DNA of 64,000 nucleotides from a bacterium (lineage in GTDB: Bacteria > Omnitrophota > Gorgyraeia > Zapsychrales > Zapsychraceae): contig JAUIER010000012.1 of the NCBI GenBank assembly GCA_030429765.1, positions 32,916 to 96,915 on the forward strand, read 5' to 3'. Each line of letters begins with the position of its first letter. The stretch's first letter is position 1. Positions 3,001 to 18,507 of the stretch are shown here, one piece after another. Under the pieces are notes generated by a model. The model searched no databases and was not told the origin of the DNA. It saw only the letters and a program-made list of their open reading frames with translations. The translations under genes and the position numbers were made by a program.

Positions 3001-3474
3001 AATAGCCCCGCGCATGGCGTTGGCCATAAACTGATCCACCGTATCCAGTAAGTTGGCCTCCAGATTATTCCATGCGCTGGTGATTTGGGAGCCTATGGAC
3101 ATTTGGAGTACCACCCCGACACCGGCAACAGCCACCGTGGTTATCGCAGCTGTCGCCCCAATAGCACCAACCCCGTACGTTACAACAACCAGAATAACAA
3201 TTACAATAAACGATATCAGCGCCTTGAAGAATCCTGTGCTTTGGCATTTCTTGCGTTCCCCACCCAGCTGCTGCATAAGCAACGAGTGCCCGTAGCTGGC
3301 CATGGCCGAGGCCAATGATGCCGCCCCGGTATTAGCCCCTATCTCCGTGGAAACTTTGTTTTCAGAGATCCGCCCCAAATTTAGTGTTACAGCATAAAAT
3401 ATCAACGCAAATGCGACAACCAAAAGGATAACCAGTCCGGCCTGGCCTTCTTTTTTTCGCATCGATTTGTTCAT
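1..3474 (-). CDS. Giant Cys-rich TadG-like protein, partial: N-terminus at 3474, C-terminus beyond the window start. N-terminal Tad/TadE-like pseudopilin-type TM segment (MNKSMRKKEGQAGLVILLVVAFALIFYAVTL), then a Cys/Pro/Gly/Asp-rich extracellular region.
   Basis: Manual translation of the reverse strand from ATG at 3474 stays open to position 1 (1158 codons) with no stop. The ORF track shows only short spurious ORFs here, because the long ORF has no stop inside the window. N-terminal hydrophobic segment resembles Tad/TadG (PF13400-like) proteins. About 50 Cys, including CC and CxC pairs. Confidence 0.6.
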   Translation of the reverse strand, partial: MNKSMRKKEGQAGLVILLVVAFALIFYAVTLNLGRISENKVSTEIGANTGAASLASAMASYGHSLLMQQLGGERKKCQSTGFFKALISFIVIVILVVVTYGVGAIGATAAITTVAVAGVGVVLQMSIGSQITSAWNNLEANLLDTVDQFMANAMRGAIQVAANDNKQVPDLYDSDMDGIFGLHPVTSEPLDTMNRYAKYYPLLLDQIAVNYLPAAEQFLVDLQDFIYKIPGPNGDCFGTTCGPASECDLDSATCQPAWALIDPMPGTFVPGLQTSTINYSFSIPLDPSHPCHVDINVPYGNPVTDPFPFSVPSECNLCCLPDTVPDPRGPSFGQIQVRPGCCDCRGKPPTIQIPDPTNPSGPLITVPNPDYCDPTLFPPNLECGTASTCQLLSPYGAVEPSLGTFYQWVFDENFENSENTFFSFRELLGKDDENQRYFKDSSNPNWAQQFAPPWQGIRYYVDDTTGFYSGYTAPPPSTPENRIGVFPFLWKIHDWGTDLDSLDTVGTLVIGNPVYNPFDQRCKWCDSRAATLCSPNLPYEMNQLVLRNDPSTMTYDTSYCVETYVDDVTLALTGSFEIPVDTCAPDPYAGGAFWKRGSDQFCSNGDIDGPSAWPYSGQCAKFLNGNCTTNVSGTPEPSICECEDPTSTSPADTAAANFPEDILDEMIYNTHTFTREADSLLQYSRGQLASQFETWFENWQRWIDPGQGLANAASPGGTGNFGNCYPYDWDNDPGTPDECQPFAGQLYLWLQALVDIRDELSALAVQSFQGSACATGPWCVPPRGCPDVSAYEELTFDFNGDGTDGQIEDVVACLNYAIHGYDYTCNGGVPDVACLNASSIFDGNDAQYNDCKLTCSLAECTNLPRTLVTNPPYDRNAYVQADPLDEPDMAAMLQCVHACSDLTCRGMAAGLPWNPVLSAMPLTQSSSGAAYAYSGTISNFNAIFDCNGNDLNDARGMRTLVRDSLVQANPICDINPGGWLASTGTAAIEAENQIDKFIMRRDYLDSRMTELNYFRNILTTAIVEFEDFLTNAVPPLIDERIAYDAAPPDDWPNQIVYGWQEDNSPENRPAAPGEAYWHIVKVEGRIPKRCNNACGVGGGPDPKWPKVETYTRKGGLKRCYELFNTDGIVKFRVTRYDESPTPAGGGLRFPNGQPIWKF

Positions 3475-3509
3475 AAATGACATCATATAATTGATTGTCC
3501 CGGGGCTAA

Positions 3510-3791
3510 TTAGTTGTCCCAAATAGCATTCATCGCCGTCCCCGACGAGAAAAATGGAGAAATCTGTGCAATTTGCTGACTGTCAGATACATTGGTATAT
3601 GACCGGCTCAACGTTTGACCGGTCAATATTGTGTCATGCGCAATCCTACGATTTACGATCTCTTTTCCTGACCATTCAAAAATTTTGGTTATCGAATAAA
3701 TCATCAGAAACACGATGATCATACTGAAGGTAAACTCAATGATGACCTGACCCAAGCGTCGTTCTTCAGATGTCTTCTTTCTTCGAATCAT
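3510..3791 (-). CDS. TadE-like pseudopilin (93 aa)
   Basis: N-terminus RRLGQVIIEFTFSMIIVFLMI matches the TadE-like pattern (basic residues, then G-Q/A, then an E-containing hydrophobic helix). Spacing to neighbours is 18-40 nt. Confidence 0.55.
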   Translation of the reverse strand: MIRRKKTSEERRLGQVIIEFTFSMIIVFLMIYSITKIFEWSGKEIVNRRIAHDTILTGQTLSRSYTNVSDSQQIAQISPFFSSGTAMNAIWDN

Positions 3792-3830
3792 TATATCATA
3801 CTCCTAACCGAGGAAATTGCCTACCAAATT

Positions 3831-5246
3831 TTACGGATATAGATACTGAACAAATGGATCTCCGTCCGTCGGCGTTATCCATTTTCGGCCATGCTTATCT
3901 GTTATCCGGCTTCGGACCAAAATGTGAGGATCCTGCCCGCCCAAAGTAGGAATAACCATACAGATTCTTGTCGCATTGGCGCTGGTAAAACAACAGGCAT
4001 TATTCGGACAGCACACCTCCACAGGATTACGCACATCTGATGTCCACCCAGCCTGATTTCCTTCAATCGTGCCCGGTTGAACTACAGAACTTCCATCCCC
4101 CGCCGTACCGTTGCAAAATCTGCCCGTATCATTACTCAGTTGAACCGTCCTCTGGATCAAATCAAGTGAATCTTTACGCTGTGCAGAACGAACATATCGT
4201 CTGGAATCGCCAGCCACCTGATACAACTGCCCCTCATCGATTTGAAGATAAGTGCCCACACCGTCACCGGCAGGTGTCCAATCTTTCGTAAATGTAAACA
4301 TTTGGATGTCTTGTGTCGTGATGCCCGCTGTCGGACGCTGCGGAGCCGGATTGAGAGGATCCGGATCTGGAATTGTAAAGTCCATGTCCCCTTCCTGGAA
4401 ATCCACCACATTGGCTGTTATCGGAGTCCCCCTCAGATCATCCATTGGACGGCCGTTGATACCAACAATCCTTTCCTGGTGCAAATCTCCATCGACATCC
4501 ACAAATGTAAATTCACCGTTTTCACCATCTATCTGTGAAGGTGTCGCAGCAATCCACTGCCACCAAAAATCCTGGCAGATCGCATCCATAGCCGGATCCG
4601 ACGCCAGTCCGTCATCAAGAGCCCCGTTTCGATCCAAATCGAATCGGTAGTAGTTGTTACCGCCGATATTGTCCACACAATTGGACGCCGTACCTCCACA
4701 ATCGCACCATGGTAATGCCGGGTGGTTGTTTTCTTTCTGATATACCAGCCCCGTGGGGTTGGCCGGAGAATTAAATGCCTTTGTCGCCACATTGGCTGTA
4801 GTGAACACAAAGTGCACCCCGTTAATAAAGTAATCGATAACCGGCAAATTGGCAAATTCACCCGGATCAATCGGCATAAAAAGATTACGACTATGGGTTG
4901 CTCCCCCAATCGCTTGTTGGGGAACCCTGTCGATTGGTGCCTGCCTGGAAGATTCCACCGACAGCCTATCTTCAATTACCAAAACTGAGGCACTGTTGCG
5001 GGAGGCGGTGCCATCACGCCAGTTTCCCGGAACATTTTTCAAACCTTCCGTAAATTCAAATGACATGAGCATCGCCAAGCGGAATGCTTTATAGCGATGA
5101 TTTTGTGCATAACTAGTTGTCATGACAGATCTTACAATAAGTCCAATAACAAAAACCACAACCGATCCAAACACCGCTAGTTCCAGAGCAGTTTGCGCTG
5201 TTTTGGATCGCCCCGAAATGGCTTTTTTTGTACGGTTAATATTCAT
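3831..5246 (-). CDS. Large TadE/TadG-like pseudopilin-type protein (471 aa). C-terminal Cys-rich region (VCCPNNACCF).
   Basis: N-terminus GRSKTAQTALELAVFGSVVVFVIGLIV is a Tad-type pseudopilin leader plus TM. Shares CC motifs with the giant gene downstream. Confidence 0.6.
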   Translation of the reverse strand: MNINRTKKAISGRSKTAQTALELAVFGSVVVFVIGLIVRSVMTTSYAQNHRYKAFRLAMLMSFEFTEGLKNVPGNWRDGTASRNSASVLVIEDRLSVESSRQAPIDRVPQQAIGGATHSRNLFMPIDPGEFANLPVIDYFINGVHFVFTTANVATKAFNSPANPTGLVYQKENNHPALPWCDCGGTASNCVDNIGGNNYYRFDLDRNGALDDGLASDPAMDAICQDFWWQWIAATPSQIDGENGEFTFVDVDGDLHQERIVGINGRPMDDLRGTPITANVVDFQEGDMDFTIPDPDPLNPAPQRPTAGITTQDIQMFTFTKDWTPAGDGVGTYLQIDEGQLYQVAGDSRRYVRSAQRKDSLDLIQRTVQLSNDTGRFCNGTAGDGSSVVQPGTIEGNQAGWTSDVRNPVEVCCPNNACCFTSANATRICMVIPTLGGQDPHILVRSRITDKHGRKWITPTDGDPFVQYLYP

Positions 5247-5249
5247 TTG

Positions 5250-5564
5250 CTAGTATGCTCCCACAGCCATAGAACCGGTTTTGGTTTCCAGTGAACGCGA
5301 GACATCATTACGCATTGTTTGCAGTCCAGACGGAGTCGATACAGACACCAGAGCCGTAACCGTATTCGTTTGAATAACATGACGTATACTTCCATTAGTC
5401 GTTCGAGGATCATACTGATCGCCTAATTGATCCACCGATTCTTTCCAACGTCCTTGCATGCCTCGCTTGAAGTAGTTTTGAGAGGCCACCAAGGCCCCTA
5501 TTACGATAATTAAAATCGTCGAGTATTCGATCGCTGATTGACCTTTGTTCTTTCTAATAATCAT
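5250..5564 (-). CDS. Flp-family (class III signal peptide) pilin-like protein, 104 aa
   Basis: N-terminus MIIRKNKGQSAIEYSTILIIVIGALVA carries the G/A-Q-x3-EY prepilin motif followed by a hydrophobic helix. Confidence 0.55.
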   Translation of the reverse strand: MIIRKNKGQSAIEYSTILIIVIGALVASQNYFKRGMQGRWKESVDQLGDQYDPRTTNGSIRHVIQTNTVTALVSVSTPSGLQTMRNDVSRSLETKTGSMAVGAY

Positions 5565-5591
5565 ATATTTATACCTCGACTTTATTCACCA

Positions 5592-5939
5592 TTAAACGTC
5601 TGGTTGGATCCCCAAATTAGTCAGGGTGTTAAGTTGGCCTGAAATCGCATCATCATAGACATAATTGATTATGCCGGCTACGTCTAATGTTTGCTTGTCT
5701 ACTCTGGCACTGGATATGCCATAAGATGCATTCAAATGCCCCTGGGTTATATCATTGAATCGCTGATCGGATTCGTTCTGCACGCCAATTTGATCGGCCA
5801 CAAATCTAATCCAACCTTGGGTGGAACGACGGATCATCGTTCCCATAACAGCCGTAATTGCCACAATAATCGTCAAAATCAGCGTATATTCGACCACCGT
5901 CTGGGCTCTGTGATTAGATTGTTTACTTTGCTTGAGCAT
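5592..5939 (-). CDS. Flp-family pilin-like protein, 115 aa
   Basis: N-terminus ...HRAQTVVEYTLILTIIVAITAVMG (A-Q-x3-EY motif plus hydrophobic helix). Confidence 0.5.
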   Translation of the reverse strand: MLKQSKQSNHRAQTVVEYTLILTIIVAITAVMGTMIRRSTQGWIRFVADQIGVQNESDQRFNDITQGHLNASYGISSARVDKQTLDVAGIINYVYDDAISGQLNTLTNLGIQPDV

Positions 5940-5944
5940 ATAAA

Positions 5945-6325
5945 TTAGTCCGCGTTTATGGCCGGAACTGTGAAACTGACAGAATTTGAAAATGTTGTTT
6001 GGTTGTAATCCTTGCGAAATATTCCAGAACTAAGTGGCAAGGAAGGTAATACGGCCGTCGTATCTGCAAATAAGGTCGTGGTATCTGTAACAGAATTTCG
6101 ATAGTATGGCTCATACTGTACGAAGACATCATTACCTCCGTAGATGTTTCCTACACGATTTCGAACGGTCGTGATAATGGAACTGTGGGCATCGCGAATT
6201 TTTGCCTGCACAGCCCGTCTAAAGTACATTGTCATTCCTGACAGCATGGCAACAACCACAAAAAAAACCAGAACATATTCTCCGGCGACCATTTGGGCTT
6301 TTTCATTTTCAAATCGTCTTAACAT
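5945..6325 (-). CDS. Flp-family pilin-like protein, 126 aa
   Basis: N-terminus ...EKAQMVAGEYVLVFFVVVAMLSGMTMY (A-Q-x4-EY motif plus hydrophobic helix). Confidence 0.5.
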   Translation of the reverse strand: MLRRFENEKAQMVAGEYVLVFFVVVAMLSGMTMYFRRAVQAKIRDAHSSIITTVRNRVGNIYGGNDVFVQYEPYYRNSVTDTTTLFADTTAVLPSLPLSSGIFRKDYNQTTFSNSVSFTVPAINAD

Positions 6326-6423
6326 TCTGGTCCTTTTTTAACACGGTAAGCTTCTCTATTATACACGAATCTATGGATAAAGATCAACTAAAAACACGTA
6401 TCACAAATTGTGAGCTACTTCAA

Positions 6424-6474
6424 CAAAATATGGCTTACCTGAGCAATTATATTCCTCAAGTAAGCCATATTTTG
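6424..6474. repeat. Perfect 15-bp inverted repeat (CAAAATATGGCTTAC … GTAAGCCATATTTTG) with a 21-bp spacer, in the pilin-cluster intergenic region
   Basis: Exact reverse-complement arms seen directly. Adjacent TCACAAATTGTGA palindrome at 6401..6413. Confidence 0.6.
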
Positions 6475-6509
6475 AACAAAACGACTAGCGAGTAGCCGTT
6501 TAGACTGTA

Positions 6510-6839
6510 TTAGTTACCCCAGAATTCTGACGTGTTGTTCAGAATTGCAGAGTTCATTAGGTCATACGTTGTCTCTGCTTGAGTCAACTGAGATCGTGTA
6601 ACCCCAGAAGCAAAAGTATCACGAGACTGTCCGATGACAACCATTTTCTTGATTACGTTAGTGTTACCTTCGGAATACTGTTGTCCAATATCATCAGCCG
6701 CTTGCTTCAATCGTCCTTGAACACCACGTTTGATGTATACCTGGATCGATAAAAGGGCACCAATGATAATGATGATCAGAATCGCATATTCCAATGTACT
6801 CTGACCTTTTTTTCTTTTCTTGTTAAAGTACTTAAGCAT
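6510..6839 (-). CDS. Flp-family pilin-like protein, 109 aa
   Basis: N-terminus MLKYFNKKRKKGQSTLEYAILIIIIIGALLSI. Nearly identical leader to the 7312..7533 paralog. Confidence 0.6.
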   Translation of the reverse strand: MLKYFNKKRKKGQSTLEYAILIIIIIGALLSIQVYIKRGVQGRLKQAADDIGQQYSEGNTNVIKKMVVIGQSRDTFASGVTRSQLTQAETTYDLMNSAILNNTSEFWGN

Positions 6840-6900
6840 TGATATATCCTCCCAAATTAATCCTCTAAGTTAATAGAGGGATTAAGTTATTATCTTCAGA

Positions 6901-7260
6901 TTACAGACCTTGAATAAGACCAAGCGCGGTGTTATATGATGATTCTTGGAAACCACCAACCCCTCTTGTTCTTGCGTTATCTGTTTGCTCAGCAACTGTC
7001 GTGTTATCCAATGTTTGGATTTGGTTAGTCGCTGTATCAATCAGATAATCAGTTTGTAGGTAATACGGCTCGTATTGTGCTGCTGTTCCCAAAGCGTTTG
7101 ATTGAGTAGTCATGTACTGCCCAGCTTCACGAACCCTGGCTTGTAGAGCACGTTGTGCATATGTCTGCATCGCAATAATACCGGCCACAACCAGTGAAAT
7201 CAGGATGGCATATTCTGCAGTATTTTGCGCCTTTTTATTTTTTATTAACTTTCTGAACAT
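6901..7260 (-). CDS. Flp-family pilin-like protein, 119 aa
   Basis: N-terminus MFRKLIKNKKAQNTAEYAILISLVVAGIIAM. Confidence 0.55.
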   Translation of the reverse strand: MFRKLIKNKKAQNTAEYAILISLVVAGIIAMQTYAQRALQARVREAGQYMTTQSNALGTAAQYEPYYLQTDYLIDTATNQIQTLDNTTVAEQTDNARTRGVGGFQESSYNTALGLIQGL

Positions 7261-7311
7261 TTATTTGTCCTCCTAAGATTAAATTCATGTAAAGATTGAA
7301 TTTTTCAAACA

Positions 7312-7533
7312 TTAGTTAGAAGTAGGTCGTGAAGTGGCCAATCGGTTAGCCATATCAGTCATACCGTTTGTACCCGTCGTTAGTGTACTGTTGTACGCTG
7401 TACGGAAGATACCATTAGGTCCTAGGAAAACCAAAAGGGCTGCTAATACGGCCGCAACCAAAATGATATACTCAACGGTACTTTGACCTTTCTTTTTCTT
7501 TTTAGGATTATTATTTATATTCCTTTTAAGCAT
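7312..7533 (-). CDS. Flp-family pilin, 73 aa
   Basis: N-terminus ...KKKKKGQSTVEYIILVAAVLAALLVFLGPNG. Shares the FLxPNG motif with the orphan gene at 17400..17612. Confidence 0.6.
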   Translation of the reverse strand: MLKRNINNNPKKKKKGQSTVEYIILVAAVLAALLVFLGPNGIFRTAYNSTLTTGTNGMTDMANRLATSRPTSN

Positions 7534-7592
7534 TGTCTTCCTCCTTAAAAAAGTTCACTTTTAAGATAGCGCCCACAAAACTTCATCGTGGG

Positions 7593-7760
7593 TTACTGAT
7601 TTCTGGACTCTTGAAGAATTATTTGTTGTGTTGCTTGTACTGATCTAAATACATAGGTACTCATGGCAATTGCTCCTGCTGCCACAATGGCTGCGATTAA
7701 GGCATACTCTAGTATACTTTGACCTGTCGTGTTTCTGATTTTTTGTTTCTTTGACCTCAT
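7593..7760 (-). CDS. flp: Flp prepilin, 55 aa (MRSKKQKIRNTTGQSILEYALIAAIVAAGAIAMSTYVFRSVQATQQIILQESRNQ). Below the ORF-track size cutoff.
   Basis: Found by manual reverse-strand translation. Classic Flp motif: a predicted cleavage site after G, then QSILEYALIAAIV. Typical Flp size. First gene after a dedicated promoter and leader. Confidence 0.6.
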   Translation of the reverse strand: MRSKKQKIRNTTGQSILEYALIAAIVAAGAIAMSTYVFRSVQATQQIILQESRNQ

Positions 7761-7912
7761 CGTAACCACCTTATGTATTTCACAAATAATGCCTGCTCTC
7801 GATGTGATGTTGCTTACATCAGAATCCTGAGAGCTCTATTGCTGAAGGGGTCGACTGTCCAGCCGGCCTTCAACACTTCGAAACATCCTGACTGATTCAG
7901 AACGAACCGAAG

Positions 7913-7935
7913 GGTAAAAGCACTCGAAAGTGCTA
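7913..7935 (-). terminator. Second leader hairpin: AGCACU-UUCG-AGUGCU followed by UUUAC
   Basis: 6-bp stem with a UUCG tetraloop and a weak U-run. Confidence 0.25.
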
Positions 7936-7947
7936 TTAACTCATTCC

Positions 7948-7977
7948 AATAAAAAACCCCTACAGTTATGTAGAGGT
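7948..7977 (-). terminator. Intrinsic-terminator-like hairpin in the flp leader (attenuator candidate)
   Basis: Minus-strand RNA reads CCUCUACA-UAAC-UGUAGGGG followed by UUUUUUAUU. The 8-bp stem holds a U.G wobble only on the minus strand; on the plus strand the same position would be a C.A mismatch. Confidence 0.4.
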
Positions 7978-7984
7978 AATCGGG

Positions 7985-8053
7985 TTATGGCTGTTTCAAT
8001 GAACGCAGACAGCATCTATACGAAATTTTCGTTTTGATCTCAAAAGTATTCAT
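7985..8053 (-). CDS. Candidate leader peptide (uORF, 22 aa: MNTFEIKTKISYRCCLRSLKQP) in the flp 5' leader
   Basis: AGGAG, 6 nt, then ATG. The stop lies about 8 nt upstream of an intrinsic-terminator-like hairpin. Confidence 0.25.
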   Translation of the reverse strand: MNTFEIKTKISYRCCLRSLKQP

Positions 8054-8111
8054 TTTTTCTCCTAGGAATGAAATCGTCATATCTGTATAAATGGCTGTTT
8101 AATGTGATAAA

Positions 8112-8139
8112 AGTATATCATATATCGAGTAATTGTCAA
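8112..8139 (-). promoter_or_regulatory. Sigma70-like promoter for flp
   Basis: On the minus strand: TTGACA at 8139..8134, a 16-nt spacer, TATACT at 8117..8112. Lies immediately downstream of the stop of the 576-aa gene. Predicts a 5' UTR of about 345 nt. Confidence 0.45.
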
Positions 8140-8164
8140 GGATCATGCAATGGTTGCCCTTCCC

Positions 8165-9895
8165 TTATATTAGGTCGAAGTTTAGCCGCCGCCCCTGTCG
8201 ATCCCGGATGTCCCGTGAATTGATCTCCTTGACCGCATGAATTAGCGAAGCCTTTGAATCCGCGGCCGATCCTGCCGAAATAGTCACATATACATGGCTC
8301 TCGTCCAATCGGTATGTGGCGGCACGGTCAAAAGTATCTGAAATTGTTAGACTTACGTATTTGCTGAGATATTGCCCCTCTACATAGGCCTGAACATGAG
8401 ATAAAAGTTGCTCGAACATTCCATCGACGTTCATTATAGTTGTCGCTGCGATCGGTTGAGAAGCCGACGGATCCTCATTTGAGGATACGGGCGCTTGATT
8501 GACATATTTCCGCATGAATGCATCCAGGATGTCCGTATCGGCCGTTTCTGCATTAGTAACCAGGGCCACTAGCGGCTCAGGTGATTCGTGAGCCCAAATG
8601 GCAAATACTGTCAGTGGCTGACTCAAATCATGAACATGTTCGTTCAGAATGTCGGTCGACATCTTGGCATACTGATAGATTGTGTCGTCATCATGACAGT
8701 AATAGGGGATTCGCTGGGCCCATTTCCCCGATTTGACCAATTCCTTCAGTTCTGGCTGACTTGGATGGACTCCAATGATAAATTCCCTGCGCTTAGGGAC
8801 CACGAAGGGTAGACTGGACAATGATCGTGATTCGCCATCAAGTATGTGGACCTCGTTTATAAAAAGCTGCTCTGGAATCTCAAATGATTCGACTAACGCC
8901 GCTATCTCCGGGCTTCCCAAGGAGCGTCCCTCGCTATTAAGCAGACACAAAGTATTGCTATTACTGACGATACAGCTGTCCAAAACAGAAATAGCCTTGT
9001 AAAGCGGTAGCTTCGTTGAAAAATTGTCATTTTTTTGTCCAATCTGAAATAGCTTTGTGTCCAGTTTTAGAGATCGTCCATCCGAAAAATCGATCTGGAA
9101 ACTCTGCGCCATGTTCTTGAGTTGATCAATCTCCAACTCTGCACGGGCCCAAAACGAGCCTGACTGTGAAGAATCAGTAATTTTGCCAATGACTCCCTCA
9201 TTTTGGAGTGGAAGCAACAAGGCTAAATCATTTCGACCTGAGTCTGAAGGGCCATTTTTCTCAAGCCTTGTGAGAATCTGAAAATCCAAGGCCTGGATCG
9301 TTTCCTGAGAATTAATGTCCAAACTGAGATCTCGAAAGAGTTCTGTGTAAAAATTTGACGATAGACATTCACATACACCGGCCAACATAAAAGTCAATCC
9401 TGCGTTGCTAATCGGATGCTCCTCCAAACCTTGTTTCCTTGACCGAATTGTTTCTACGGAGCGTAAGAACTCTTCGTCCAAACCACTCTCAGATTGGACA
9501 TTATTTTTGATCGCGTCCATTTCTTCTGTTTGACCAGAATCCGACATTGTCTGTACAGCTTCACTCTTTGTCGGATCATTTTCCTGGGGAGTAGTGACCC
9601 CTTCGGTTTCGGTCGGTATCGGGATCTTGGTGAGGTCCTGCGAAATCTGAATTTTCTTTTCAGCCGGGATCTCAAACTTCTTTTTCTTCTCGACCTTGAC
9701 CTTGGCCGGTCGACCAACGGAATTGCTTAAATTAGCTTGTTTTAGGATGGTGTTGATGGAGGATTTTGACACCTTGATCTCAAATTTCTCAGATGTCATC
9801 TCGGCTAGTTTTCGACAGCCCAGCTTGGGATTTGATTGCTTCTGATCAAGTATATAGTCGATAACTTCTTTTTTTAGTTTGTGGACAACACCCAT
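8165..9895 (-). CDS. HTH-domain protein of unknown function, 576 aa. N-terminal transposase/regulator-like HTH, a Lys-rich linker, then a large uncharacterised soluble region.
   Basis: N-terminal 60 aa (…KLGCRKLAEMTSEKFEIKVSKSSINTILKQANLS) looks like an IS630/ISL3-type HTH. No TM segments. Sits where tadB/tadC would be expected. Confidence 0.65.
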   Translation of the reverse strand: MGVVHKLKKEVIDYILDQKQSNPKLGCRKLAEMTSEKFEIKVSKSSINTILKQANLSNSVGRPAKVKVEKKKKFEIPAEKKIQISQDLTKIPIPTETEGVTTPQENDPTKSEAVQTMSDSGQTEEMDAIKNNVQSESGLDEEFLRSVETIRSRKQGLEEHPISNAGLTFMLAGVCECLSSNFYTELFRDLSLDINSQETIQALDFQILTRLEKNGPSDSGRNDLALLLPLQNEGVIGKITDSSQSGSFWARAELEIDQLKNMAQSFQIDFSDGRSLKLDTKLFQIGQKNDNFSTKLPLYKAISVLDSCIVSNSNTLCLLNSEGRSLGSPEIAALVESFEIPEQLFINEVHILDGESRSLSSLPFVVPKRREFIIGVHPSQPELKELVKSGKWAQRIPYYCHDDDTIYQYAKMSTDILNEHVHDLSQPLTVFAIWAHESPEPLVALVTNAETADTDILDAFMRKYVNQAPVSSNEDPSASQPIAATTIMNVDGMFEQLLSHVQAYVEGQYLSKYVSLTISDTFDRAATYRLDESHVYVTISAGSAADSKASLIHAVKEINSRDIRDRQGRRLNFDLI

Positions 9896-9960
9896 AGTTT
9901 TCCTAAGATCATCAGATTGGACATTTAAGTATACCGTCCAAATGCGTTTAGGTCAATGGT

Positions 9961-10326
9961 CTAACCAAGAATAATTTTGTCAGCGACTTGAGTGCGGGAA
10001 GATTGGATGACTCCTACTGGAACTTCGATGGCGGATTTTGCCTTCCAGTAAATTCGGCTTAGCCGATTGGGTCGGATATTTTGGACCAAACCCACCACGG
10101 TATTATTGTCATCGATAAAAATCACATCAATGGCGAAACGCATAAAGAACATGTGAATAGAATTACAATGGGTGATTAGCAGACCGTGACCCGGCTCTAG
10201 GGACTTGTGCTTAAGTAATCCCACCATTCTGGACATAAAGGTATCTGCTAAGACGGCTTGATCTGCGATAACCGTATTACGGGTGGAGTTTTCTATCTTC
10301 ATAAGGGTTAGGTTTTGATGTGCCAA
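9961..10326 (-). CDS. DUF192 (COG1430) family protein, 121 aa
   Basis: Size and sequence pattern (…GLLITHCNSIHMFFMRFAIDVIFIDDNNTVVGL…) typical of DUF192. Confidence 0.6.
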   Translation of the reverse strand: MAHQNLTLMKIENSTRNTVIADQAVLADTFMSRMVGLLKHKSLEPGHGLLITHCNSIHMFFMRFAIDVIFIDDNNTVVGLVQNIRPNRLSRIYWKAKSAIEVPVGVIQSSRTQVADKIILG

Positions 10327-10344
10327 CGTCGACGGGGATAGGCA

Positions 10345-12504
10345 CTAGACAGGCTTGTTGAACATCTCTTTATTGAAGTTCATTCCACGGGTAATAAAGT
10401 CGTGGTAACAGTTGGGGACGTATCCTGTGGCCTCAAACTGACCGAGAATCTTGCCATTGCTGTCCATCCCCTTTTGTTTAAATACAAAAACATCCTCGAG
10501 ATGAAGTTGAAAATCGGCCGTGAGTCCTGTTGTCTCGCTGACCCCCGTGATCTTTCTCGAACCGTCTGAATAACGGTTGATGTGAACGATGATCTGAATC
10601 GCTGAGGAGATCATCTCGTTAATCGCACGCACTGGCAGCTCGATACCACTTAACAGAATCATCGAGTGCATTCGGGTCAATACATCGCGTGTTGAGTTGG
10701 CGTGTAGCGTGGTCATTGATCCATCGTGACCGGTATTCATCGCCTGAAGCATATCAAGAACCTCGCCCCCGCGACACTCACCGATAACAATCCGGTCAGG
10801 ACGCATCCGCAGACAGTTGATAAACAAATCACGAATCGTGATCTGCCCTTTACCCTCAACGTTCGCTGGGCGTGACTCCAGACGTCCCCAATGGCTTTTC
10901 TTCAATCGAAGCTCAGCGGCGTCCTCAATCGTGATAATACGCTCGCTGTCGGGAATAAATTCTGAAACGACGTTTAGGAGCGTTGTTTTACCCGCACCTG
11001 TACCACCCGAAACGATCATATTTTTACGGCAAATAACACATGCCTGAAGAAAATCGGCCATTTCCTTGGTGATACTGCCGTATTTTTCAATCAAATCATT
11101 GACCTCGATACGTTCCTGCCCAAACTTTCGAATGGTGATCATTGGTCCGCCCAACGACAAAGGTGGAATAATGGCATTGATCCGCGATCCGTCCTGCAGA
11201 CGGGCATCAACCATCGGAGTCGATTCATCGATTCGTCGACCTAATGGCGCGATGATACGATCAATAATGGAGCGCATCTTTTCATTGGAAACAAATTTTC
11301 GATTGGTAAAAATCAACTTACCATTCTTCTCGACGTAGATTTCGTCCTTGTTGTTGACCATGATATCCGTTACGTCGGGATCGGCCAGGAAATCTTCCAA
11401 AGGACCCAGTCCAAGGGCCTCATTGACAATATCACGGACCACGCGTGTGCGCTCTTCTTGTGAGGAAATCTTACCACCAGACTCCTCCATAAGTAAGTTA
11501 AGAACGACCTGCTCGGCGCTTTTCTTGACCTTTACCGCCGATTCCGGATCACCCAGCATATCAACCGAAATTCCGTCGAGATTAAGCCGTTCGACCAATT
11601 TCTCATGAATCCGTTTCTTCAGCGATATAATCTCATCCTCTTCCGTCGCAAATGTCGTTGTCGTTCCCGCTTGCTGCGTGACACCAAATTTTTCCCAGAA
11701 CGATCCTTGTCCGGACATACCGTCAGTTGATCTGACCTTTTCGACATTGCTGGTCTCAACGTAAATATCGTTCTTCTTGAGCGCATTGACCATTTTGTTG
11801 AATGCATCAGCCACCCCGCTGCGAGGGCTATCTAATACGCAAGGAATCCCCTTGTTAAGGGCCATTCCGACCGTTTTTCCATCTGAAGGAATGTGCGCTA
11901 ATATTTCAACTGGAATCGCCGATCGAACTTCCTGCCAATGGACACTTCCGCGGCTCTCCGAACGGTTTAAGATCAGGCGGACCATATTCATCGGGTAGTG
12001 GAGACTCTGTAAAACGTCCAGACAATTCTTAATCTGATACACAGATAAAATATCCGGCGTTCCGACGAGAAGAATCAAATTCGTGTGGTCCAGCGCGGCG
12101 ACTAGAATATCACTAAACGTACGACCGGCATCAATAATGACATACTCGTATTGTTTGCGGGCAATACGAAAGAACGCCTGTAAAGCCTCGGCATTAACCT
12201 GAGCGATTTCTTTATTGTTTTTTATGGCTGGTAGGAAATGAAGTCCACTTTGATGGACGGTGGCATGCTGAGCTAACGGATCTTGATCGGCATTTGGATT
12301 GCTGAACGTGGGTATGATATCGACGACGGAATTACGAACCTGGACATTAAGCATTCGGGACATATCCTGTCCGGCCTGCATGTCTAGATCGACGAGCAAC
12401 ACCTTTTTTCCAGCTTTGGCTAGTGAAGCCGAAAGGTTTACTGCCGTCAGCGTTTTTCCAACCCCGCCCTTGCTGCTAAAGACGGTAATAATTCTACAAT
12501 CCAT
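10345..12504 (-). CDS. Fused pilus ATPase: N-terminal TadZ/CpaE-like ParA/MinD-type domain (no receiver domain) plus C-terminal TadA/CpaF secretion ATPase
   Basis: Deviant Walker A SSKGGVGKTLTAVNLS at residues 10-25 (ParA/MinD class). Second P-loop VSGGTGAGKTTLLN with T2SSE-family motifs (RIITIEDAAEL, GHDGSMTTLHANS) in the C-terminal half. Confidence 0.85.
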   Translation of the reverse strand: MDCRIITVFSSKGGVGKTLTAVNLSASLAKAGKKVLLVDLDMQAGQDMSRMLNVQVRNSVVDIIPTFSNPNADQDPLAQHATVHQSGLHFLPAIKNNKEIAQVNAEALQAFFRIARKQYEYVIIDAGRTFSDILVAALDHTNLILLVGTPDILSVYQIKNCLDVLQSLHYPMNMVRLILNRSESRGSVHWQEVRSAIPVEILAHIPSDGKTVGMALNKGIPCVLDSPRSGVADAFNKMVNALKKNDIYVETSNVEKVRSTDGMSGQGSFWEKFGVTQQAGTTTTFATEEDEIISLKKRIHEKLVERLNLDGISVDMLGDPESAVKVKKSAEQVVLNLLMEESGGKISSQEERTRVVRDIVNEALGLGPLEDFLADPDVTDIMVNNKDEIYVEKNGKLIFTNRKFVSNEKMRSIIDRIIAPLGRRIDESTPMVDARLQDGSRINAIIPPLSLGGPMITIRKFGQERIEVNDLIEKYGSITKEMADFLQACVICRKNMIVSGGTGAGKTTLLNVVSEFIPDSERIITIEDAAELRLKKSHWGRLESRPANVEGKGQITIRDLFINCLRMRPDRIVIGECRGGEVLDMLQAMNTGHDGSMTTLHANSTRDVLTRMHSMILLSGIELPVRAINEMISSAIQIIVHINRYSDGSRKITGVSETTGLTADFQLHLEDVFVFKQKGMDSNGKILGQFEATGYVPNCYHDFITRGMNFNKEMFNKPV

Positions 12505-12560
12505 AATTTCAAACTTACTGAAGAATGACTAATGAAAATTTAACGTATTATATACCGCTA

Positions 12561-14222
12561 TTAGTTTGTTTGCAAACTATAAACAATCGGAATTGTTATG
12601 TTCAGTTCCTGTAAGTCTGTCTCTGGTGGAAAACTTTCAAAAGGTGCAGTTTCACGGGCTGTATTTAAGGCATAGTCATCAAAGATTTCCTGCCCGGATG
12701 TTTCCTTGACTAGAGCATAGGCCAACGTGCCATCGCTCAGGATGTGCAGACCGATTTTGACAGTCCCTTCCCATCCGTAATCCTTGGCCTCCTGAGGATA
12801 AACAACTTGCTCAGAAATAGCCTGCTGAAGGTTTTGCACGTAATCGGTCATTTCCGGTGGAATAAATGACGAGTAGTCATCTCCTCCGGACATGGACATA
12901 TCCGACATAAACTTCGTCGTCGTAGGGTGCGGAACCTGACTATCCATCATCTTTTTACGAGGCGAATCCTCATTGAGCCCCGTATCGATTCGATGAGGTG
13001 TTAGTGAAATCACTAACTCGACATCTGAATCTGGTGATGGTGTTGATCGGGATCGGAAAACCAATCCGACAACTGGAATGCTGCCTAAAAATGGTACCTT
13101 TTTAACCAATTCACCCGAACGCTGTTGGATCAAACCGGCCAATACGATCGTTTGTCCATCATCAAGGAATAGCTGTGTGCTTGCGCTTCGCGTAACGAAG
13201 GCCACGTCATCCCCCACCGCATTCGAGTTGTCAATATCACTGATCTCAATATTGATCTGAACGTCAATCTTGTTACGCCGAATCGTCGGTGTGATCGTCA
13301 TTCCAATACCATACTCCTTAAATTCGACGTTTTCTTGAGTAGACGTTCCTGTCGATGTCGTCGTACGAATTGGAATTTCACCACCAATTAGGAAACTAGC
13401 CTCTTCGCCGCTCAGAACTACGAGTTTAGGTTGCGATAGGATTCGTCCCATACCTTCTTCTAATAGAGCATTTACGGTAGAAATCAGGGCGCTTGTACGA
13501 CGGAAGTCCCCAATCTTGAAGAAATCTCCAATGGATCCATCAAAATCAGGCAAGTCCTCTGCATAGTCCAGCTTAATACCTCCGCCGGATCCGGTGGCGC
13601 CATTACCACCACCAGCTGTCCAGTCAATCCCTAGACTCTTGGTTAAGGTGGTGTTAAGCTCCGTAACTTGTATGTCGATTTGAACCAAATCTTCGATGTC
13701 CTCTTCTTCCACAAGGCTTAGAACATGTTGGTCAAACGGAGCAATGATATCATCAAACAGTATGGCCTTTTTGTCAGGCACACTACCAGTTAGGACAACC
13801 CGCCCTTCCGGCTTATTGATATCCAATTTTACGTTGTTAATTCCAGCCCCATTGAGAAGTCGTTCAAGTCGATCTTTAATGACGCTTAACTCGGTTCCTG
13901 AGACGTTAATCATAACCACACGTTTGCCATGTTCGTCCCAGATAAATAAAGGTGTTTGGCCCACGTTTTTGGCAATCAGCAGGATTTCCTGTTCGTCGGC
14001 ATCGACAACGTCAGCAATGTCTGGATCAGTCATCGAAAGTCGGGTCAGGGAATATACGCGTAGTTGCGTCAACTCCCCCAGAACCATGTTGACTTCATCG
14101 GTGTATATTGTATCTAAAGCCTCAGCATCGGCTTGTTGAGGTCTTATTAGCCCAAGTCCCATTATTAGGAAGAGCGCCATTATGGTGAAAAATCTGTTAT
14201 GAGTTATCTGTGCTGTTTTCAT
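12561..14222 (-). CDS. CpaC/RcpA-type secretin with a C-terminal TonB_C-like domain
   Basis: Signal peptide, secretin N-domain, secretin core (…LIGGEIPIRTTTSTGTSTQENVEFKEYGIGMTITPTI…). The C-terminal roughly 90 aa (VVYPQEAKDYGWEGTVKIGLHILSDGTLAYALVKETSGQEIFDDYALNTARETAPFESFP) matches the TonB C-terminal domain pattern (PF03544). Confidence 0.8.
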   Translation of the reverse strand: MKTAQITHNRFFTIMALFLIMGLGLIRPQQADAEALDTIYTDEVNMVLGELTQLRVYSLTRLSMTDPDIADVVDADEQEILLIAKNVGQTPLFIWDEHGKRVVMINVSGTELSVIKDRLERLLNGAGINNVKLDINKPEGRVVLTGSVPDKKAILFDDIIAPFDQHVLSLVEEEDIEDLVQIDIQVTELNTTLTKSLGIDWTAGGGNGATGSGGGIKLDYAEDLPDFDGSIGDFFKIGDFRRTSALISTVNALLEEGMGRILSQPKLVVLSGEEASFLIGGEIPIRTTTSTGTSTQENVEFKEYGIGMTITPTIRRNKIDVQINIEISDIDNSNAVGDDVAFVTRSASTQLFLDDGQTIVLAGLIQQRSGELVKKVPFLGSIPVVGLVFRSRSTPSPDSDVELVISLTPHRIDTGLNEDSPRKKMMDSQVPHPTTTKFMSDMSMSGGDDYSSFIPPEMTDYVQNLQQAISEQVVYPQEAKDYGWEGTVKIGLHILSDGTLAYALVKETSGQEIFDDYALNTARETAPFESFPPETDLQELNITIPIVYSLQTN

Positions 14223-14225
14223 AGT

Positions 14226-15104
14226 CTATAGCTCCGCGCCCCCCCGAAAGATTTGAACAAAAGGCAAGTCATCCGCTTCAACTTCCTCGACTTCGACAGA
14301 CTCACGCCGCTCTGCTTTTTTCTGCTTTGGCAGATTGAGCTCTGTCCCTTGCTTATCCAAAACATAATCGGATAGTGAATCCCAGGCGGCCACTTGTAAC
14401 GCTTTAGTGTCTTTCTCCGCCGGAGATCGTAGGGCTAGTTTTAACTTTCCGTATTTCTGAGAAAAAGTGATCAACCCCGCTTCTTCAGGGGCGACTGCGA
14501 TCGTGACATTCAAGTCCCTTGATTTTTGTTGTTGCTGATAAACCAGCGCACTTCCTACCGGTTTAAAATTCGAATTGACGGCCAGCACCTGAATGTTCTG
14601 GAAGAGCACAGATGTAACTTCCAGTGGTTTTTCGAGAGGATCTTGGGGATGTGGCACCTGCAGATCAGCCAAGATATCTACATAATCTCCCGGATTGATC
14701 AATCCACCTACCGCCGATAGAGAATCGATCAGAATTGTCATGGCGCGTTTTCCTGGAGGTGTGATTGAAGCGAACACTGTACTGTCCACAATTTGCGTCG
14801 GCATGCCGGCGGCTGATTTGGCAACTTCACCTTTTGGAAGGTTAGCTAACTGTGCCTGCAACGCTTTTTGCTGTTGCTGCGCCATGGCCTGCATTTGTTT
14901 ATGTAATTCGCGGTTTTTGATCTCCATCTCTTTCCGCAAAGCAGCCGTTTGGGCTTGGGACTTCTTTTCGTAGTCCTGGGCCAATGCCTTGGTTTGTGAT
15001 TCAATACTTCCTTTAACGTATTGACTCATCAAGAAGGCAGCCACAAGCCCTAAACCCACAGCTAGTAGTATCGTTGCAAATTGTTTTTTGTTTTCAATGT
15101 TCAT
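14226..15104 (-). CDS. CpaB/RcpC-like pilus assembly protein: N-terminal TM, Gln-rich coiled coil, SAF/RcpC-like domain
   Basis: Matches CpaB in topology, domain pattern and position upstream of the secretin. Confidence 0.6.
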   Translation of the reverse strand: MNIENKKQFATILLAVGLGLVAAFLMSQYVKGSIESQTKALAQDYEKKSQAQTAALRKEMEIKNRELHKQMQAMAQQQQKALQAQLANLPKGEVAKSAAGMPTQIVDSTVFASITPPGKRAMTILIDSLSAVGGLINPGDYVDILADLQVPHPQDPLEKPLEVTSVLFQNIQVLAVNSNFKPVGSALVYQQQQKSRDLNVTIAVAPEEAGLITFSQKYGKLKLALRSPAEKDTKALQVAAWDSLSDYVLDKQGTELNLPKQKKAERRESVEVEEVEADDLPFVQIFRGGAEL

Positions 15105-15117
15105 AGTTTCACCTCGG

Positions 15118-17355: not shown

Positions 17356-17399
17356 ACTTTCCTCCTTAACATAAATATTTGGAATTAAAAGATTTAGGA

Positions 17400-17612: not shown

Positions 17613-17640
17613 GAAATCCCCCTGTGCGTGCGCGTAATTG

Positions 17641-18429: not shown

Positions 18430-18507
18430 TCACTCAAGATTGTCGTCGATATTGAACCTGAAACCTATTCTCATTCTAGTTTCATATTGTGAAAAAGGCA
18501 ATGTGTT

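What the first reader, a model, noticed from the sequence alone, without database searches (positions are those of the whole stretch)
8165..10326. Unknown 576-aa HTH protein plus DUF192 occupy the slot where tadB/tadC normally sit
Between the ATPase and flp, where platform genes are expected, lie two soluble proteins. One is a DUF192 protein. The other is a 576-aa protein with an N-terminal transposase/regulator-like HTH, a Lys-rich linker, and a long uncharacterised domain with no TM segments. Its stop codon directly abuts the flp promoter. It could be a locus-specific regulator, a domesticated transposase, or a new assembly factor.
Basis: partly seen in the sequence, partly recalled or inferred. 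Interest (0 to 1): 0.55.

Follow-up and report, generated by a model that had tools for sequence, protein, structure and literature searches.

The report
Transposase-derived regulator inside Tad pilus locus
The 576-aa gene is not a jumping-gene insertion or a replacement for missing pilus parts: it is a conserved, unannotated DNA-binding protein, probably a dead relative of Tn5-type transposases, that sits in almost every Omnitrophota Tad pilus locus and carries a conserved 12-bp box on its own promoter.

Summary
Both ORFs are real: X (8165-9895, minus strand, 576 aa, soluble) and a DUF192 protein (9961-10326). The platform genes are not missing. In this genome tadB and tadC lie at the far end of the cluster, just beyond the window's left edge.

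X is not an IS insertion. It has no flanking inverted repeats. It holds the same slot in 63 of 65 loci found through X itself, and in 55 of 61 loci found independently through the TadZ-TadA ATPase. The family has about 900 clusters, none named and none matching Pfam beyond the HTH.

X has a near-invariant N-terminal HTH, a Lys-rich arm, a disordered linker and a fast-evolving C-terminal body. A confident model (pLDDT 86) has Tn5 transposase as its top PDB match, though not significantly. Profile comparison aligns the IS4-family first-Asp and 'LTS...Y..RW' motifs, but the catalytic Glu is lost.

A 12-bp box, ATGTCCAATCTG, marks X's own promoter in about 75% of loci. A second copy often lies 5 or 6 helical turns upstream. 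Extra boxes lie inside X and, outside the window, near tadB, tadC and a giant ORF.

Best reading: an exapted, catalytically dead transposase acting as an autoregulated locus regulator. Binding and targets are inferred, not shown.

The parts
8165..9895 (-). Gene X, 576 aa: a soluble, unannotated protein of the Omnitrophota Tad locus
   Evidence: ORF. 896 homologous cluster representatives. Conserved position next to Tad genes. AF2 model pLDDT 86.4, pTM 0.77.
9710..9895 (-). X residues 1-62: three-helix HTH, near-invariant across the family (M1 G2 K19 R28 K44 S45 G61 R62 invariant in 126 sequences)
   Evidence: Alignments A1 and A2. Weak Pfam and NCBIfam hits to transposase-type HTHs. Pax6 paired-domain match, prob 0.99.
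9641..9709 (-). X residues 63-85: Lys-rich arm with the conserved 'KKF.IP..KK' motif
   Evidence: Sequence. Conservation of K73 F74 I76 P77 K80 K81. A DNA-contacting role is inference.
9476..9640 (-). X residues 86-140: acidic, poorly conserved linker of variable length, predicted disordered
   Evidence: pLDDT below 50 for 94-123. Large length variation in alignment A1.
9116..9475 (-). X residues 141-260: helical domain with the conserved 'DG.G.IFLKAA.WE' motif (G166, L170, K171, A172 at 90% or more)
8486..9115 (-). X residues 261-470: RNase-H-like strand/helix order (b1-b2-b3-a1-b4-a2-b5), a beta-rich insertion (358-447), then the 'LTN...Y..RWPN' helix. Proposed dead DDE core.
   Evidence: DSSP of the model. 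hhalign to the IS186 and Tn5 families. Permutation control. Column conservation. Top Foldseek PDB hit Tn5 transposase, E 0.11.
8168..8485 (-). X residues 471-576: C-terminal alpha/beta part with conserved N559, E560 and G568
9928..9956 (-). X's own sigma-70-like promoter (TTGACC-17-TATACT)
   Evidence: The same layout is seen upstream of X in 55 of 66 starts (TTGAC present).
9912..9925 (-). Proximal box AATGTCCAATCTGA, starting 3 nt after the -10 hexamer and ending 16 nt before the ATG. Proposed operator.
   Evidence: The box (<=2 mismatches) is present within 45 nt of the ATG in 50 of 66 X starts, and at exactly -20 in 37.
9489..9502 (-). Internal copy of the box (exact 14-mer), same orientation, in the linker-coding part of X
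9316..9327 (+). Internal copy of the box (1 mismatch), opposite orientation
9036..9047 (+). Internal copy of the box (exact 12-mer), opposite orientation. It overlaps the codons where the family's conserved Trp286 is Gly in this protein.
9961..10326 (-). DUF192 protein (121 aa from TTG; an ATG lies 9 codons in), directly after the tadZ-tadA fusion
   Evidence: Pfam PF02643 E 4e-18. DUF192 follows TadZ-TadA in 50 of 61 independently seeded loci and in nearly all X-seeded loci.
8112..8139 (-). Promoter of the flp/pilin unit (TTGACA-16-TATACT with TG), 25 nt after X's stop
   Evidence: An analogous TTGACA-N17-TGTTATA(T/C)T promoter lies just after X's stop in many loci.
7956..7977 (-). Intrinsic-terminator-like hairpin plus T-run in the flp leader
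10345..12504 (-). TadZ-like/TadA ATPase fusion (context; used as the independent seed for the co-occurrence test)

Best explanation
X is a phylum-wide accessory component of the Omnitrophota Tad pilus locus. It is a cytoplasmic, sequence-specific DNA-binding protein that most likely descends from an IS4/Tn5-type DDE transposase and has lost catalysis. Its near-invariant N-terminal HTH, probably helped by the adjacent 'GRR' motif (G61 and R62 invariant) and the Lys-rich arm, is proposed to recognise the box ATGTCCAATCTG (core ATGTCCA). One box lies between the -10 hexamer and the Shine-Dalgarno of X's own gene. In many loci a second box abuts the -35 hexamer, 52-55 or 61-66 bp upstream, which places both boxes on the same face of the helix. 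Binding there would repress X's own transcription. Further boxes lie inside X. In this genome others lie upstream of tadB, downstream of tadC and around the start of a 9568-aa ORF. These suggest that X also controls, or bridges by looping, the distal part of the pilus cluster and its neighbour. The dead transposase body would supply multimerisation or synapsis, or signal sensing. Shown here: the gene, its conservation and position, the fold model, the box and its statistics. Inferred: that X binds the box, that binding represses transcription, that other Tad genes are targets, and the transposase ancestry. DUF192 is a separate conserved small cytoplasmic protein, apparently co-transcribed with tadZ-tadA. 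Its role remains unassigned.
For: Conserved locus component:
- Synteny PPIase-RcpC-secretin-TadZA-DUF192-X-Flp holds at only 23-27% X identity.
- 63 of 65 X-seeded loci are Tad-adjacent.
- 55 of 61 TadZA-seeded metagenome loci carry X.

HTH:
- Invariant N-terminus.
- Transposase-type HTH hits in 53-61 of 80 members.
- Pax6 paired-domain match.

Box:
- 109 matches (<=1 mismatch) in 946 kb against about 4 expected; 78 of them are at X's promoter.
- Core ATGTCCA is invariant in the proximal boxes aligned. Proximal box in 50 of 66 starts, distal box in 39 of 66. Spacing clusters at 52-55 and 61-66 bp.
- Half-site density is 7.06 per kb upstream of X against 0.15 per kb in coding controls.
- Replicated in independently seeded loci: 42 matches against 4.1 expected, 26 at X's promoter.
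- The box stays with X where X is inverted or relocated.
- In the window, 4 of 5 matches lie within 900 bp at X, against 0.58 expected for 64 kb.
- Extra boxes at tadB, tadC and the giant ORF in this genome, and right after tadC in L016, L025, L026 and L037.

Transposase ancestry:
- Top PDB Foldseek hit is Tn5 transposase over 433 columns.
- hhalign against the IS186 family scores 37.6 (E 4e-4) on 'LTN..Y..RWP' versus 'LTSL..YRLRWQ'. 120 column-permuted profiles gave mean 14.4 and maximum 24.6.
- The same segment is found with Tn5.
- Relaxed alignments (-mact 0.05) are collinear. X 'LEDGT' falls on IS186 'LVDGT' and Tn5 'EDTT', the position I identify from memory as the first catalytic Asp (Tn5 D97).
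- Secondary-structure order fits an RNase-H core with a beta insertion.

Dead enzyme: the position aligned with the catalytic Glu is Leu or Phe, and the helix is cut by a conserved Pro. The candidate second Asp is only 52% conserved.
Against: - No binding data exist. The box could be the site of another factor.
- The box is not enriched in the X-flp spacer (0.18 per kb) or upstream of the assembly operon (0 per kb). Direct control of the pilin promoter through this box is therefore not supported.
- Boxes after tadC occur in only 5-6 of 18 loci that reach that far.
- The transposase link is weak by standard measures. Foldseek E is 0.11 and TM about 0.2. hhalign probability is 29-33% and the confident stretch is only 30 columns. 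E. coli IS4 InsG gave nothing. No Pfam DDE hit appeared in 80 members. The PDB profile search found nothing.
- The window's own X has lost many family-conserved residues (W175C, W225A, W286G, W377H, R463K, W464Y, P465V). Its C-terminal body is only 17-23% identical to its nearest relatives. Its model therefore rests on the family alignment.
Confidence: 0.55

Rival explanations
1. X is an HTH regulator of the locus, but its C-terminal body is an unrelated sensor or oligomerisation domain. The IS4-like motif would then be convergence or chance.
For: There are no significant Pfam, NCBIfam or PDB sequence hits outside the HTH. The Foldseek match to Tn5 is not significant. The confident hhalign stretch is only 30 columns. 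The C-terminal body evolves very fast, as sensor domains often do.
Against: The profile match exceeds all 120 permuted controls by a wide margin. It is recovered with two different IS4-family members. The first-Asp motif aligns collinearly. Tn5 is the single best of 350,542 PDB chains. The secondary-structure order fits.
Confidence: 0.2
2. X is still an enzyme: a recombinase or transposase-like protein that cuts or rearranges DNA at the boxes. It could, for example, invert its own cassette or act as a phase-variation switch for the pilus locus.
For: D272 (83%), D279 (98%) and N448 (98%) are conserved. Boxes occur in both orientations inside and around X in the window and in L001, L002 and L027. 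X is inverted relative to both neighbours in L028, L031 and L037, and these are not each other's closest relatives. Box clusters sit at both ends of the X-to-tadC block in some loci.
Against: The canonical third catalytic residue is replaced by Leu or Phe, and the second Asp is poorly conserved. The most common arrangement is two direct boxes 5-6 helical turns apart around a promoter, which is typical of an operator. Gene order is stable across the phylum. No variant orientations were seen within one strain, although only one other assembly of this strain was available.
Confidence: 0.1
3. X is a cytoplasmic assembly or targeting factor of the Tad machine, for example a partner of the TadZ-TadA ATPase or of the platform. 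Its DNA binding would be secondary.
For: X occupies a fixed position between the ATPase/DUF192 genes and the pilin genes. This layout relocates tadB and tadC. X's fast evolution resembles that of the pilin-associated p471 and giant genes.
Against: The most conserved part of X is an HTH with a conserved DNA box at its own promoter. X has its own promoter. It has no TM segment and no motif or similarity linking it to Tad proteins.
Confidence: 0.1
4. X is a recent insertion sequence that landed between tadA and flp.
For: The HTH is of transposase type. The body shows an IS4-like motif.
Against: No terminal inverted repeats or target duplication flank the ORF. The position is orthologous in more than 100 loci at 20-45% identity. 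There is one copy per locus. The catalytic residues are degenerate.
Confidence: 0.01

Closest known systems
IS4-family DDE transposases (Tn5 Tnp, IS186 InsL; Pfam PF01609 DDE_Tnp_1)
   Same: Both have an N-terminal DNA-binding region followed by an RNase-H-like core with a beta-rich insertion. The insertion is followed by the 'L-T-S/N ... Y-x2-R-W' helix. The first-Asp motif 'L(E/V)DGT' aligns collinearly.
   Different: X has no PF01609 hit, no terminal repeats, a single copy and a fixed syntenic position. The catalytic Glu is replaced by Leu or Phe after a helix-breaking Pro, and the second Asp is only half conserved. X also carries an extra Tc3/paired-like HTH at the very N-terminus.
Transposon-encoded autoregulators that bind an element end overlapping the transposase promoter (IS1 InsA; Tn5 inhibitor protein). 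Recalled from the literature, not tested here.
   Same: A transposase-related DNA-binding protein whose site overlaps the promoter of its own gene.
   Different: Those act within mobile elements. X is fixed in a chromosomal pilus locus, and its boxes are direct repeats around the promoter, not element ends.
Locus-linked regulators of Flp/Tad pili (the PprA-PprB two-component system next to the P. aeruginosa tad locus; CtrA control of Caulobacter pilA). From my own knowledge.
   Same: A regulator encoded beside, or acting on, Tad/Flp genes.
   Different: Those are response regulators of known families. X belongs to no described regulator family, and its box is not found at the flp promoter.
Exapted transposon proteins acting as transcription factors: bacterial TldR (nuclease-dead TnpB repressing flagellin genes), and eukaryotic Pax paired domains, CENP-B and FHY3. 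From my own knowledge.
   Same: The concept matches: a transposon-derived, catalytically dead protein reused as a site-specific DNA binder next to surface-filament genes. X's HTH resembles the paired domain.
   Different: TldR is RNA-guided and derives from TnpB. X would be a protein-only DDE-transposase derivative, which I cannot match to any described bacterial example.
Canonical Tad/Cpa loci (A. actinomycetemcomitans flp-tadV-rcpCAB-tadZABCDEFG; Caulobacter cpa)
   Same: RcpC/CpaB, the secretin, TadZ, TadA, TadB, TadC, Flp pilins, minor pilins and a TadG-like protein are all present.
   Different: TadZ and TadA are fused. The secretin carries a TonB_C domain. A PPIase heads the cluster. DUF192 and X follow the ATPase. 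tadB and tadC are moved to the far end, after the pilins and the TadG-like gene.

Membership tests
Active IS4-family insertion sequence / DDE transposase | Complete D-D-E catalytic triad with the Y-x2-R-x3-E-x6-K signature | tested here: not met
   First Asp: 83% D. Candidate second Asp (position 353): 52% D. The position aligned with the Glu is Leu or Phe in the family and Gln in the window protein. The helix ends at conserved W-P.
Active IS4-family insertion sequence / DDE transposase | Terminal inverted repeats and a target-site duplication flanking the gene | tested here: not met
   No inverted repeat brackets 8165-9895. The repeats found are copies of the box upstream of and inside the ORF.
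Active IS4-family insertion sequence / DDE transposase | Mobility: variable location and multiple copies | tested here: not met
   X holds the same slot in 63 of 65 X-seeded loci and 55 of 61 TadZA-seeded loci, with one copy per locus.
Active IS4-family insertion sequence / DDE transposase | Match to Pfam PF01609 (DDE_Tnp_1) or to an NCBIfam IS-family model over the catalytic domain | tested here: not met
   Only the HTH matches, and it falls below the cut-offs.
RNase-H-like (DDE) fold, as ancestry | b1-b2-b3-a1-b4-a2-b5 core superposable on a solved transposase | tested here: inconclusive
HTH transcription regulator | Helix-turn-helix DNA-binding domain | tested here: met
   Three helices at residues 9-53. 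Pax6 HTH match, prob 0.99. HTH_32 or HTH_Tnp_Tc3_2 hits in 53-61 of 80 members.
HTH transcription regulator | A conserved operator associated with a promoter | tested here: met
   The box ATGTCCAATCTG flanks X's own promoter with helical phasing.
HTH transcription regulator | Demonstrated binding and an effect on transcription | not testable with these tools
   Needs EMSA, DAP-seq or reporter assays.
Tad platform proteins TadB/TadC (T2SSF, PF00482) | Polytopic membrane protein with a T2SSF domain | tested here: not met
   X has no TM segment and no PF00482 hit. The real T2SSF pair is found downstream in L066, L016, L022 and L024.
DUF192 (PF02643, COG1430) | Pfam model match above the gathering score | tested here: met
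   65.8 bits against a cut-off of 27, E 4e-18, for 9961-10326.
Anti-phage defence or phage protein | Match to PADLOC or PHROGs models | tested here: not met
   No hits.

The most novel reading that the evidence does not exclude
X is a domesticated DDE transposase that keeps the ancestral ability to synapse two DNA ends. By pairing the box cluster at its own promoter with the box clusters about 10 kb away (upstream of tadB, after tadC, at the giant ORF), it would loop, or even rearrange, the whole pilin-tadG-tadBC block. It would then work as an architectural on/off switch for a predatory or attachment pilus and its giant effector gene across a whole phylum.
Probability: 0.15. Interest if true: 0.85.

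Novelty: new variant of a known kind. Interest (0 to 1): 0.62.

Why it matters
Omnitrophota are uncultured, mostly ultra-small bacteria. Their Tad pili and neighbouring giant genes are the main genomic argument for a predatory or parasitic lifestyle (PMC10066038).

This work identifies an unannotated family of about 900 protein clusters. It is a near-universal extra gene of that locus and comes with a precise candidate operator. That gives a concrete handle on how the pilus system is controlled. The box can be scanned in complete genomes to define a regulon, and binding can be tested in vitro without culturing the organism.

If the transposase ancestry holds, this would be a rare bacterial case of a DDE transposase exapted as a fixed, phylum-wide DNA-binding factor.

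The work also corrects a likely annotation trap. These loci can look as if they lack tadB and tadC when only the ATPase neighbourhood is inspected.

Tried and rejected
- IS insertion: the repeat search around the ORF found no bracketing inverted repeats.
- Family libraries: Pfam, NCBIfam, PADLOC and PHROGs gave nothing beyond the HTH.
- PDB sequence and profile searches with alignments A1 and A2 gave 0 hits.
- The first structure model, from 9 sequences, was too poor to use (pLDDT 53). It was replaced by the 126-sequence model.
- Foldseek against BFVD returned only HTH matches.
- hhalign against E. coli IS4 InsG found nothing useful.
- The Tn5-family profile recovered the same segment only weakly (E 0.066).
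- The search for related loci with the 126-sequence alignment failed because it had no conserved stretch. The search was redone with A1.
- X as regulator of the flp promoter through the box: rejected as a direct claim, because the box is not enriched in that spacer.
- Known riboswitch in the window's flp leader: none found at E<=5.
- Literature: nothing on DUF192 or COG1430 with pili, or on the box sequence. The Omnitrophota papers read mention Tad genes but not this protein.
- My attempt to align the window-clade flp leaders was too crude to give a structure.
Full report
**Observation**

The window is the replication-origin region of a bacterial chromosome. It carries dnaA, dnaN, gyrB, gyrA, yidC, parAB and nqrA-F. 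All relatives recovered come from Omnitrophota metagenome-assembled genomes.

A Tad-type pilus cluster runs on the minus strand:
- PPIase, 15118-16125
- RcpC/CpaB, 14226-15104
- secretin with a C-terminal TonB_C domain, 12561-14222
- TadZ-like/TadA fusion, 10345-12504
- DUF192, 9961-10326
- X, 8165-9895
- a 395-nt spacer
- two Flp-like genes, five further class-III-signal pilin-like genes and a 471-aa protein
- a TadG-like ORF that runs off the left end

X is 576 aa and soluble. It has an N-terminal transposase-type HTH that is weak by Pfam, but the model matches the Pax6 paired-domain HTH. A Lys-rich stretch follows. A strong promoter begins 25 nt after X's stop codon.

**The platform genes are not missing**

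A second assembly of the same strain (L066) extends past the window's left end. After the 471-aa gene it shows a 93-aa ORF, a 1270-aa TadG-like protein and a 119-aa ORF. Two T2SSF genes (285 and 292 aa) come next, then another 119-aa ORF and a 9568-aa ORF.

Related loci have the same T2SSF pair at the distal end, or among the pilin genes, confirmed by Pfam. The 'slot' description of gene order is correct, but nothing is replaced.

**X is a fixed component of the locus, not an insertion**

No inverted repeats bracket the ORF. Word-indexed search found only nine homologues at 23-27% identity. The three contexts examined already showed the same synteny from CN-hydrolase and Mdh through to Flp.

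An exhaustive profile search found 896 cluster representatives, 607 of them below 1e-30. All named members are 'hypothetical protein' from Omnitrophica.

A scan of species-representative genomes gave 62 loci. All are labelled Omnitrophota or, probably mislabelled, Planctomycetales, apart from one Margulisiibacteriota. I annotated them with phmmer using the window's proteins.
- X is next to Tad genes in 63 of 65 loci. The usual order is TadZA-DUF192-X-Flp.
- In L028, L031 and L037, and probably in L026 whose contig ends inside X, X alone is inverted between the assembly and pilin blocks.
- In L048, L052, L054 and L057, X heads the cluster.

As an unbiased test I seeded on TadZ-TadA in metagenome contigs. 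Of 61 loci with at least 1.2 kb downstream, 55 carry X and 50 carry DUF192. The exceptions are five high-GC loci with a PilT-like ATPase after TadZA, and one locus (L113) where an ORF I judged by eye to be IS200-like (Y1 transposase; not tested against a family library) sits in X's place.

**Anatomy of X**

In a 126-sequence alignment, residues 1-62 are almost invariant. A conserved 'KKF.IP..KK' arm follows, then a linker of variable length.

The 126-sequence alignment gave a confident model: pLDDT 86.4 and pTM 0.77. It shows these parts:
- a three-helix HTH
- a disordered linker
- a helical domain (141-260)
- strands and helices in the order b1-b2-b3-a1-b4-a2-b5 (265-352)
- a beta-rich insertion (358-447)
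- a helix (453-464) carrying 'Y..RW'
- a C-terminal alpha/beta part

X evolves much faster than its neighbours. Between loci, X is about 26% identical where TadZA is about 70% and the secretin about 50%. The N-terminus holds at 54-69% while the body drops to 17-23%. The window's copy has lost many family-conserved residues, and no closer orthologue was found.

**Ancestry**

No sequence library recognises the body of X. Four lines of evidence still point to IS4/Tn5-type transposases.

1. The best of 350,542 PDB chains by Foldseek is Tn5 transposase, aligned over 433 columns. The match is not significant: E 0.11 and TM about 0.2.
2. hhalign of the family against an IS186-family profile aligns 'P..ILTN-(10)-Ii..Yl.RWP' with 'LLTSL..V..LYRLRWQ'. 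The score is 37.6, E 4e-4 and probability 29-33%.
   - 120 column-permuted versions of the IS186 profile gave mean 14.4, sd 2.6 and maximum 24.6.
   - The same segment is picked out in Tn5, whose sequence I verified against the PDB.
3. With relaxed alignment (-mact 0.05), X's 'LEDGT' (D272) falls on IS186 'LVDGT' and Tn5 'EDTT'. X's D353 falls on Tn5 'CDRE'. By my recollection of the Tn5 literature these are catalytic residues D97 and D188.
4. The strand order, with a beta insertion before the signature helix, is the Tn5 layout. This step is inference plus established knowledge of Tn5.

The enzyme looks dead. D272 is 83% Asp and D353 only 52%. The residue aligned with the catalytic Glu is Leu or Phe, after a conserved helix-breaking Pro.

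**The box**

A repeat seen in passing turned out to be the main functional clue. TCAGATTGGACA occurs five times in the window at <=1 mismatch, against 0.58 expected, and four copies lie within 900 bp at X.

K-mer counting on the regions upstream of X in all loci showed AATGTCCA in 47 of 57. Anchoring on the ATG of 'MGV' gives the typical layout: N(C/T)GTCCAATCTG abutting CTTGACAAA, then 17 nt, then TATAnT, then about 10 nt, then AATGTCCAATCTGGAGG, 5 nt and ATG.

The counts are as follows.
- Of 66 X starts, 50 have the proximal box (at exactly -20 in 37) and 39 have a distal box.
- 28 have both, and the spacings cluster at 52-55 and 61-66 bp, that is five or six helical turns.
- Across 946 kb there are 109 matches (<=1 mismatch) against about 4 expected, and 78 of them are at X's promoter.
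- Half-site density is 7.06 per kb upstream of X against 0.15 per kb in coding controls.
- The TadZA-seeded loci replicate this: 42 matches against 4.1 expected, 26 at X's promoter.

The box moves with X when X is inverted or relocated. Some loci show TGTCCA-N3-TGGACA palindromes, for example L020.

The distal copy lies upstream of the -35 hexamer and the spacing follows the helical repeat. This points to a DNA operator and not an RNA element.

In the window the proximal box (9912-9925) starts 3 nt after the -10 hexamer of X's promoter, which spans 9956-9928. There is no distal box, but three copies lie inside X: 9489-9502, 9316-9327 and 9036-9047.

In L066 further boxes lie 170 nt upstream of tadB and in the spacer after tadC. 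Two more lie 58 nt upstream and 214 nt downstream of the giant ORF's start. Two boxes directly follow tadC in L025, L026 and L037. One is visible in L016, where the stored sequence ends. Boxes or half-sites follow tadC in 5-6 of the 18 loci that reach that far.

The box is not enriched in the X-flp spacer or upstream of the assembly operon.

**Mechanism**

The simplest reading joins the two most conserved features: an invariant HTH and an invariant box on the same gene's promoter. X binds its own promoter, probably as a dimer or higher oligomer on phased sites, and represses it. Through the additional boxes it may act on the distal part of the cluster and on the giant gene.

The dead transposase body may provide oligomerisation or synapsis, or it may sense a signal. 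These steps are inferred.

The pilin promoter itself appears to be under other control. In several related loci a c-di-GMP-I riboswitch lies between X and the pilins, or after tadC. A GAAAACGCTTTC palindrome also lies upstream of the flp -35 hexamer in many loci.

**DUF192**

The DUF192 gene is clearly assigned. It follows tadZ-tadA by a few bases in nearly all loci. It has no strongly hydrophobic 19-residue stretch. I found nothing linking the family to pili and only a marginal PDB relative, 4q63 at E 0.24. Its function remains open.

**Verdict**

X is a new, unannotated family. As a kind, an exapted transposon protein used as a DNA-binding factor is known, but I know of no described bacterial DDE-transposase example in a pilus locus. 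Hence 'new variant of a known kind'.

Noticed in passing
L066 12359-14097 (same strain, just left of the window); L016 18813-20533; L022 17998-19699; L024 12836-14614: tadB and tadC (a T2SSF pair) sit at the far 3' end of the cluster, after the pilins and the TadG-like gene. In L024 they sit among the pilin genes. They do not follow tadA as in canonical Tad loci.
   Followed up: yes
L066 15141 to the locus end: A 9568-aa giant ORF starts about 1 kb after tadC in this genome. Copies of the box lie 58 nt upstream and 214 nt downstream of its start. This matches published notes that giant ORFs neighbour pilus genes in Omnitrophota.
   Followed up: partly
L039 2070-2198; L037 130-257; L026 408-491; L015 13702-13751: c-di-GMP-I riboswitches (Rfam RF01051 and RF03167, above gathering score) lie between X and the pilin genes, or after tadC, in related loci. 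The motif GCAAAGCCACGGGAC recurs in 13 or more of 44 X-pilin spacers. None was detected in the window's own leader.
   Followed up: partly
window 7770-8164 (minus strand): The flp leader holds a strong promoter (8139-8112). It also holds a 22-codon small ORF with a good Shine-Dalgarno (about 8053-7985) and a terminator-like hairpin (7977-7956). A 'GCAATAGAG' box after a GC hairpin is shared with L001, L004, L005, L008, L009, L011, L030 and L062. This may be an unrecognised leader or attenuator RNA.
   Followed up: partly
L013, L016, L024, L025, L039, L040, L041, L044, L049, L050, L058-L061, just after X's stop codon: A near-palindrome GAAA(A/G)CG(C/T)TTTC lies about 30 nt upstream of the flp -35 hexamer and often overlaps X's stop codon. 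It is a candidate site for a second regulator. It is absent from the window.
   Followed up: no
window 28970-28981 (plus strand), inside the 5' part of yidC (28887-30542), next to the dnaA-yidC spacer: A fifth exact copy of the box (TAATGTCCAATCTGA) lies far from the Tad locus. About 0.008 exact 12-mers are expected by chance in 64 kb (my calculation). It encodes 'NVQSE', the same peptide as the internal copy in X.
   Followed up: no
window 10345-12504 and 12561-14222: TadZ (ParA-like) and TadA (T2SSE) are fused into one 719-aa protein. The RcpA-type secretin carries a C-terminal TonB_C domain. Both features are conserved in the related loci.
   Followed up: partly
L028, L031, L037, L026 (and one metagenome locus with 'DUF192+ X-'): The X cassette alone is inverted relative to both the assembly and the pilin blocks. 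The X proteins of L028, L031 and L037 are not each other's closest relatives, which suggests repeated inversion of this one gene.
   Followed up: partly
L113 10097-10783: In the one DUF192-type locus that lacks X, an ORF beginning MGRPKRISFPGAIYHICVHGNN sits in X's place. I judged it to be IS200-like (Y1 transposase) by eye only.
   Followed up: no
L016 7826-9953; L049 8453-10001; L024, L025, L036, L038, L050, L061, L064 (650-790 nt): The DUF192-X spacer is unusually long in several loci, up to 2.1 kb, and its content is unexamined.
   Followed up: no
window 45780-45935; 35606-35883; 20112-20185: A 6S RNA gene and four tRNA genes (ordinary housekeeping features).
   Followed up: no
window 1-20000 and L066: No prepilin peptidase (TadV/CpaA) was apparent among the genes of the cluster. 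I did not search for it specifically.
   Followed up: no
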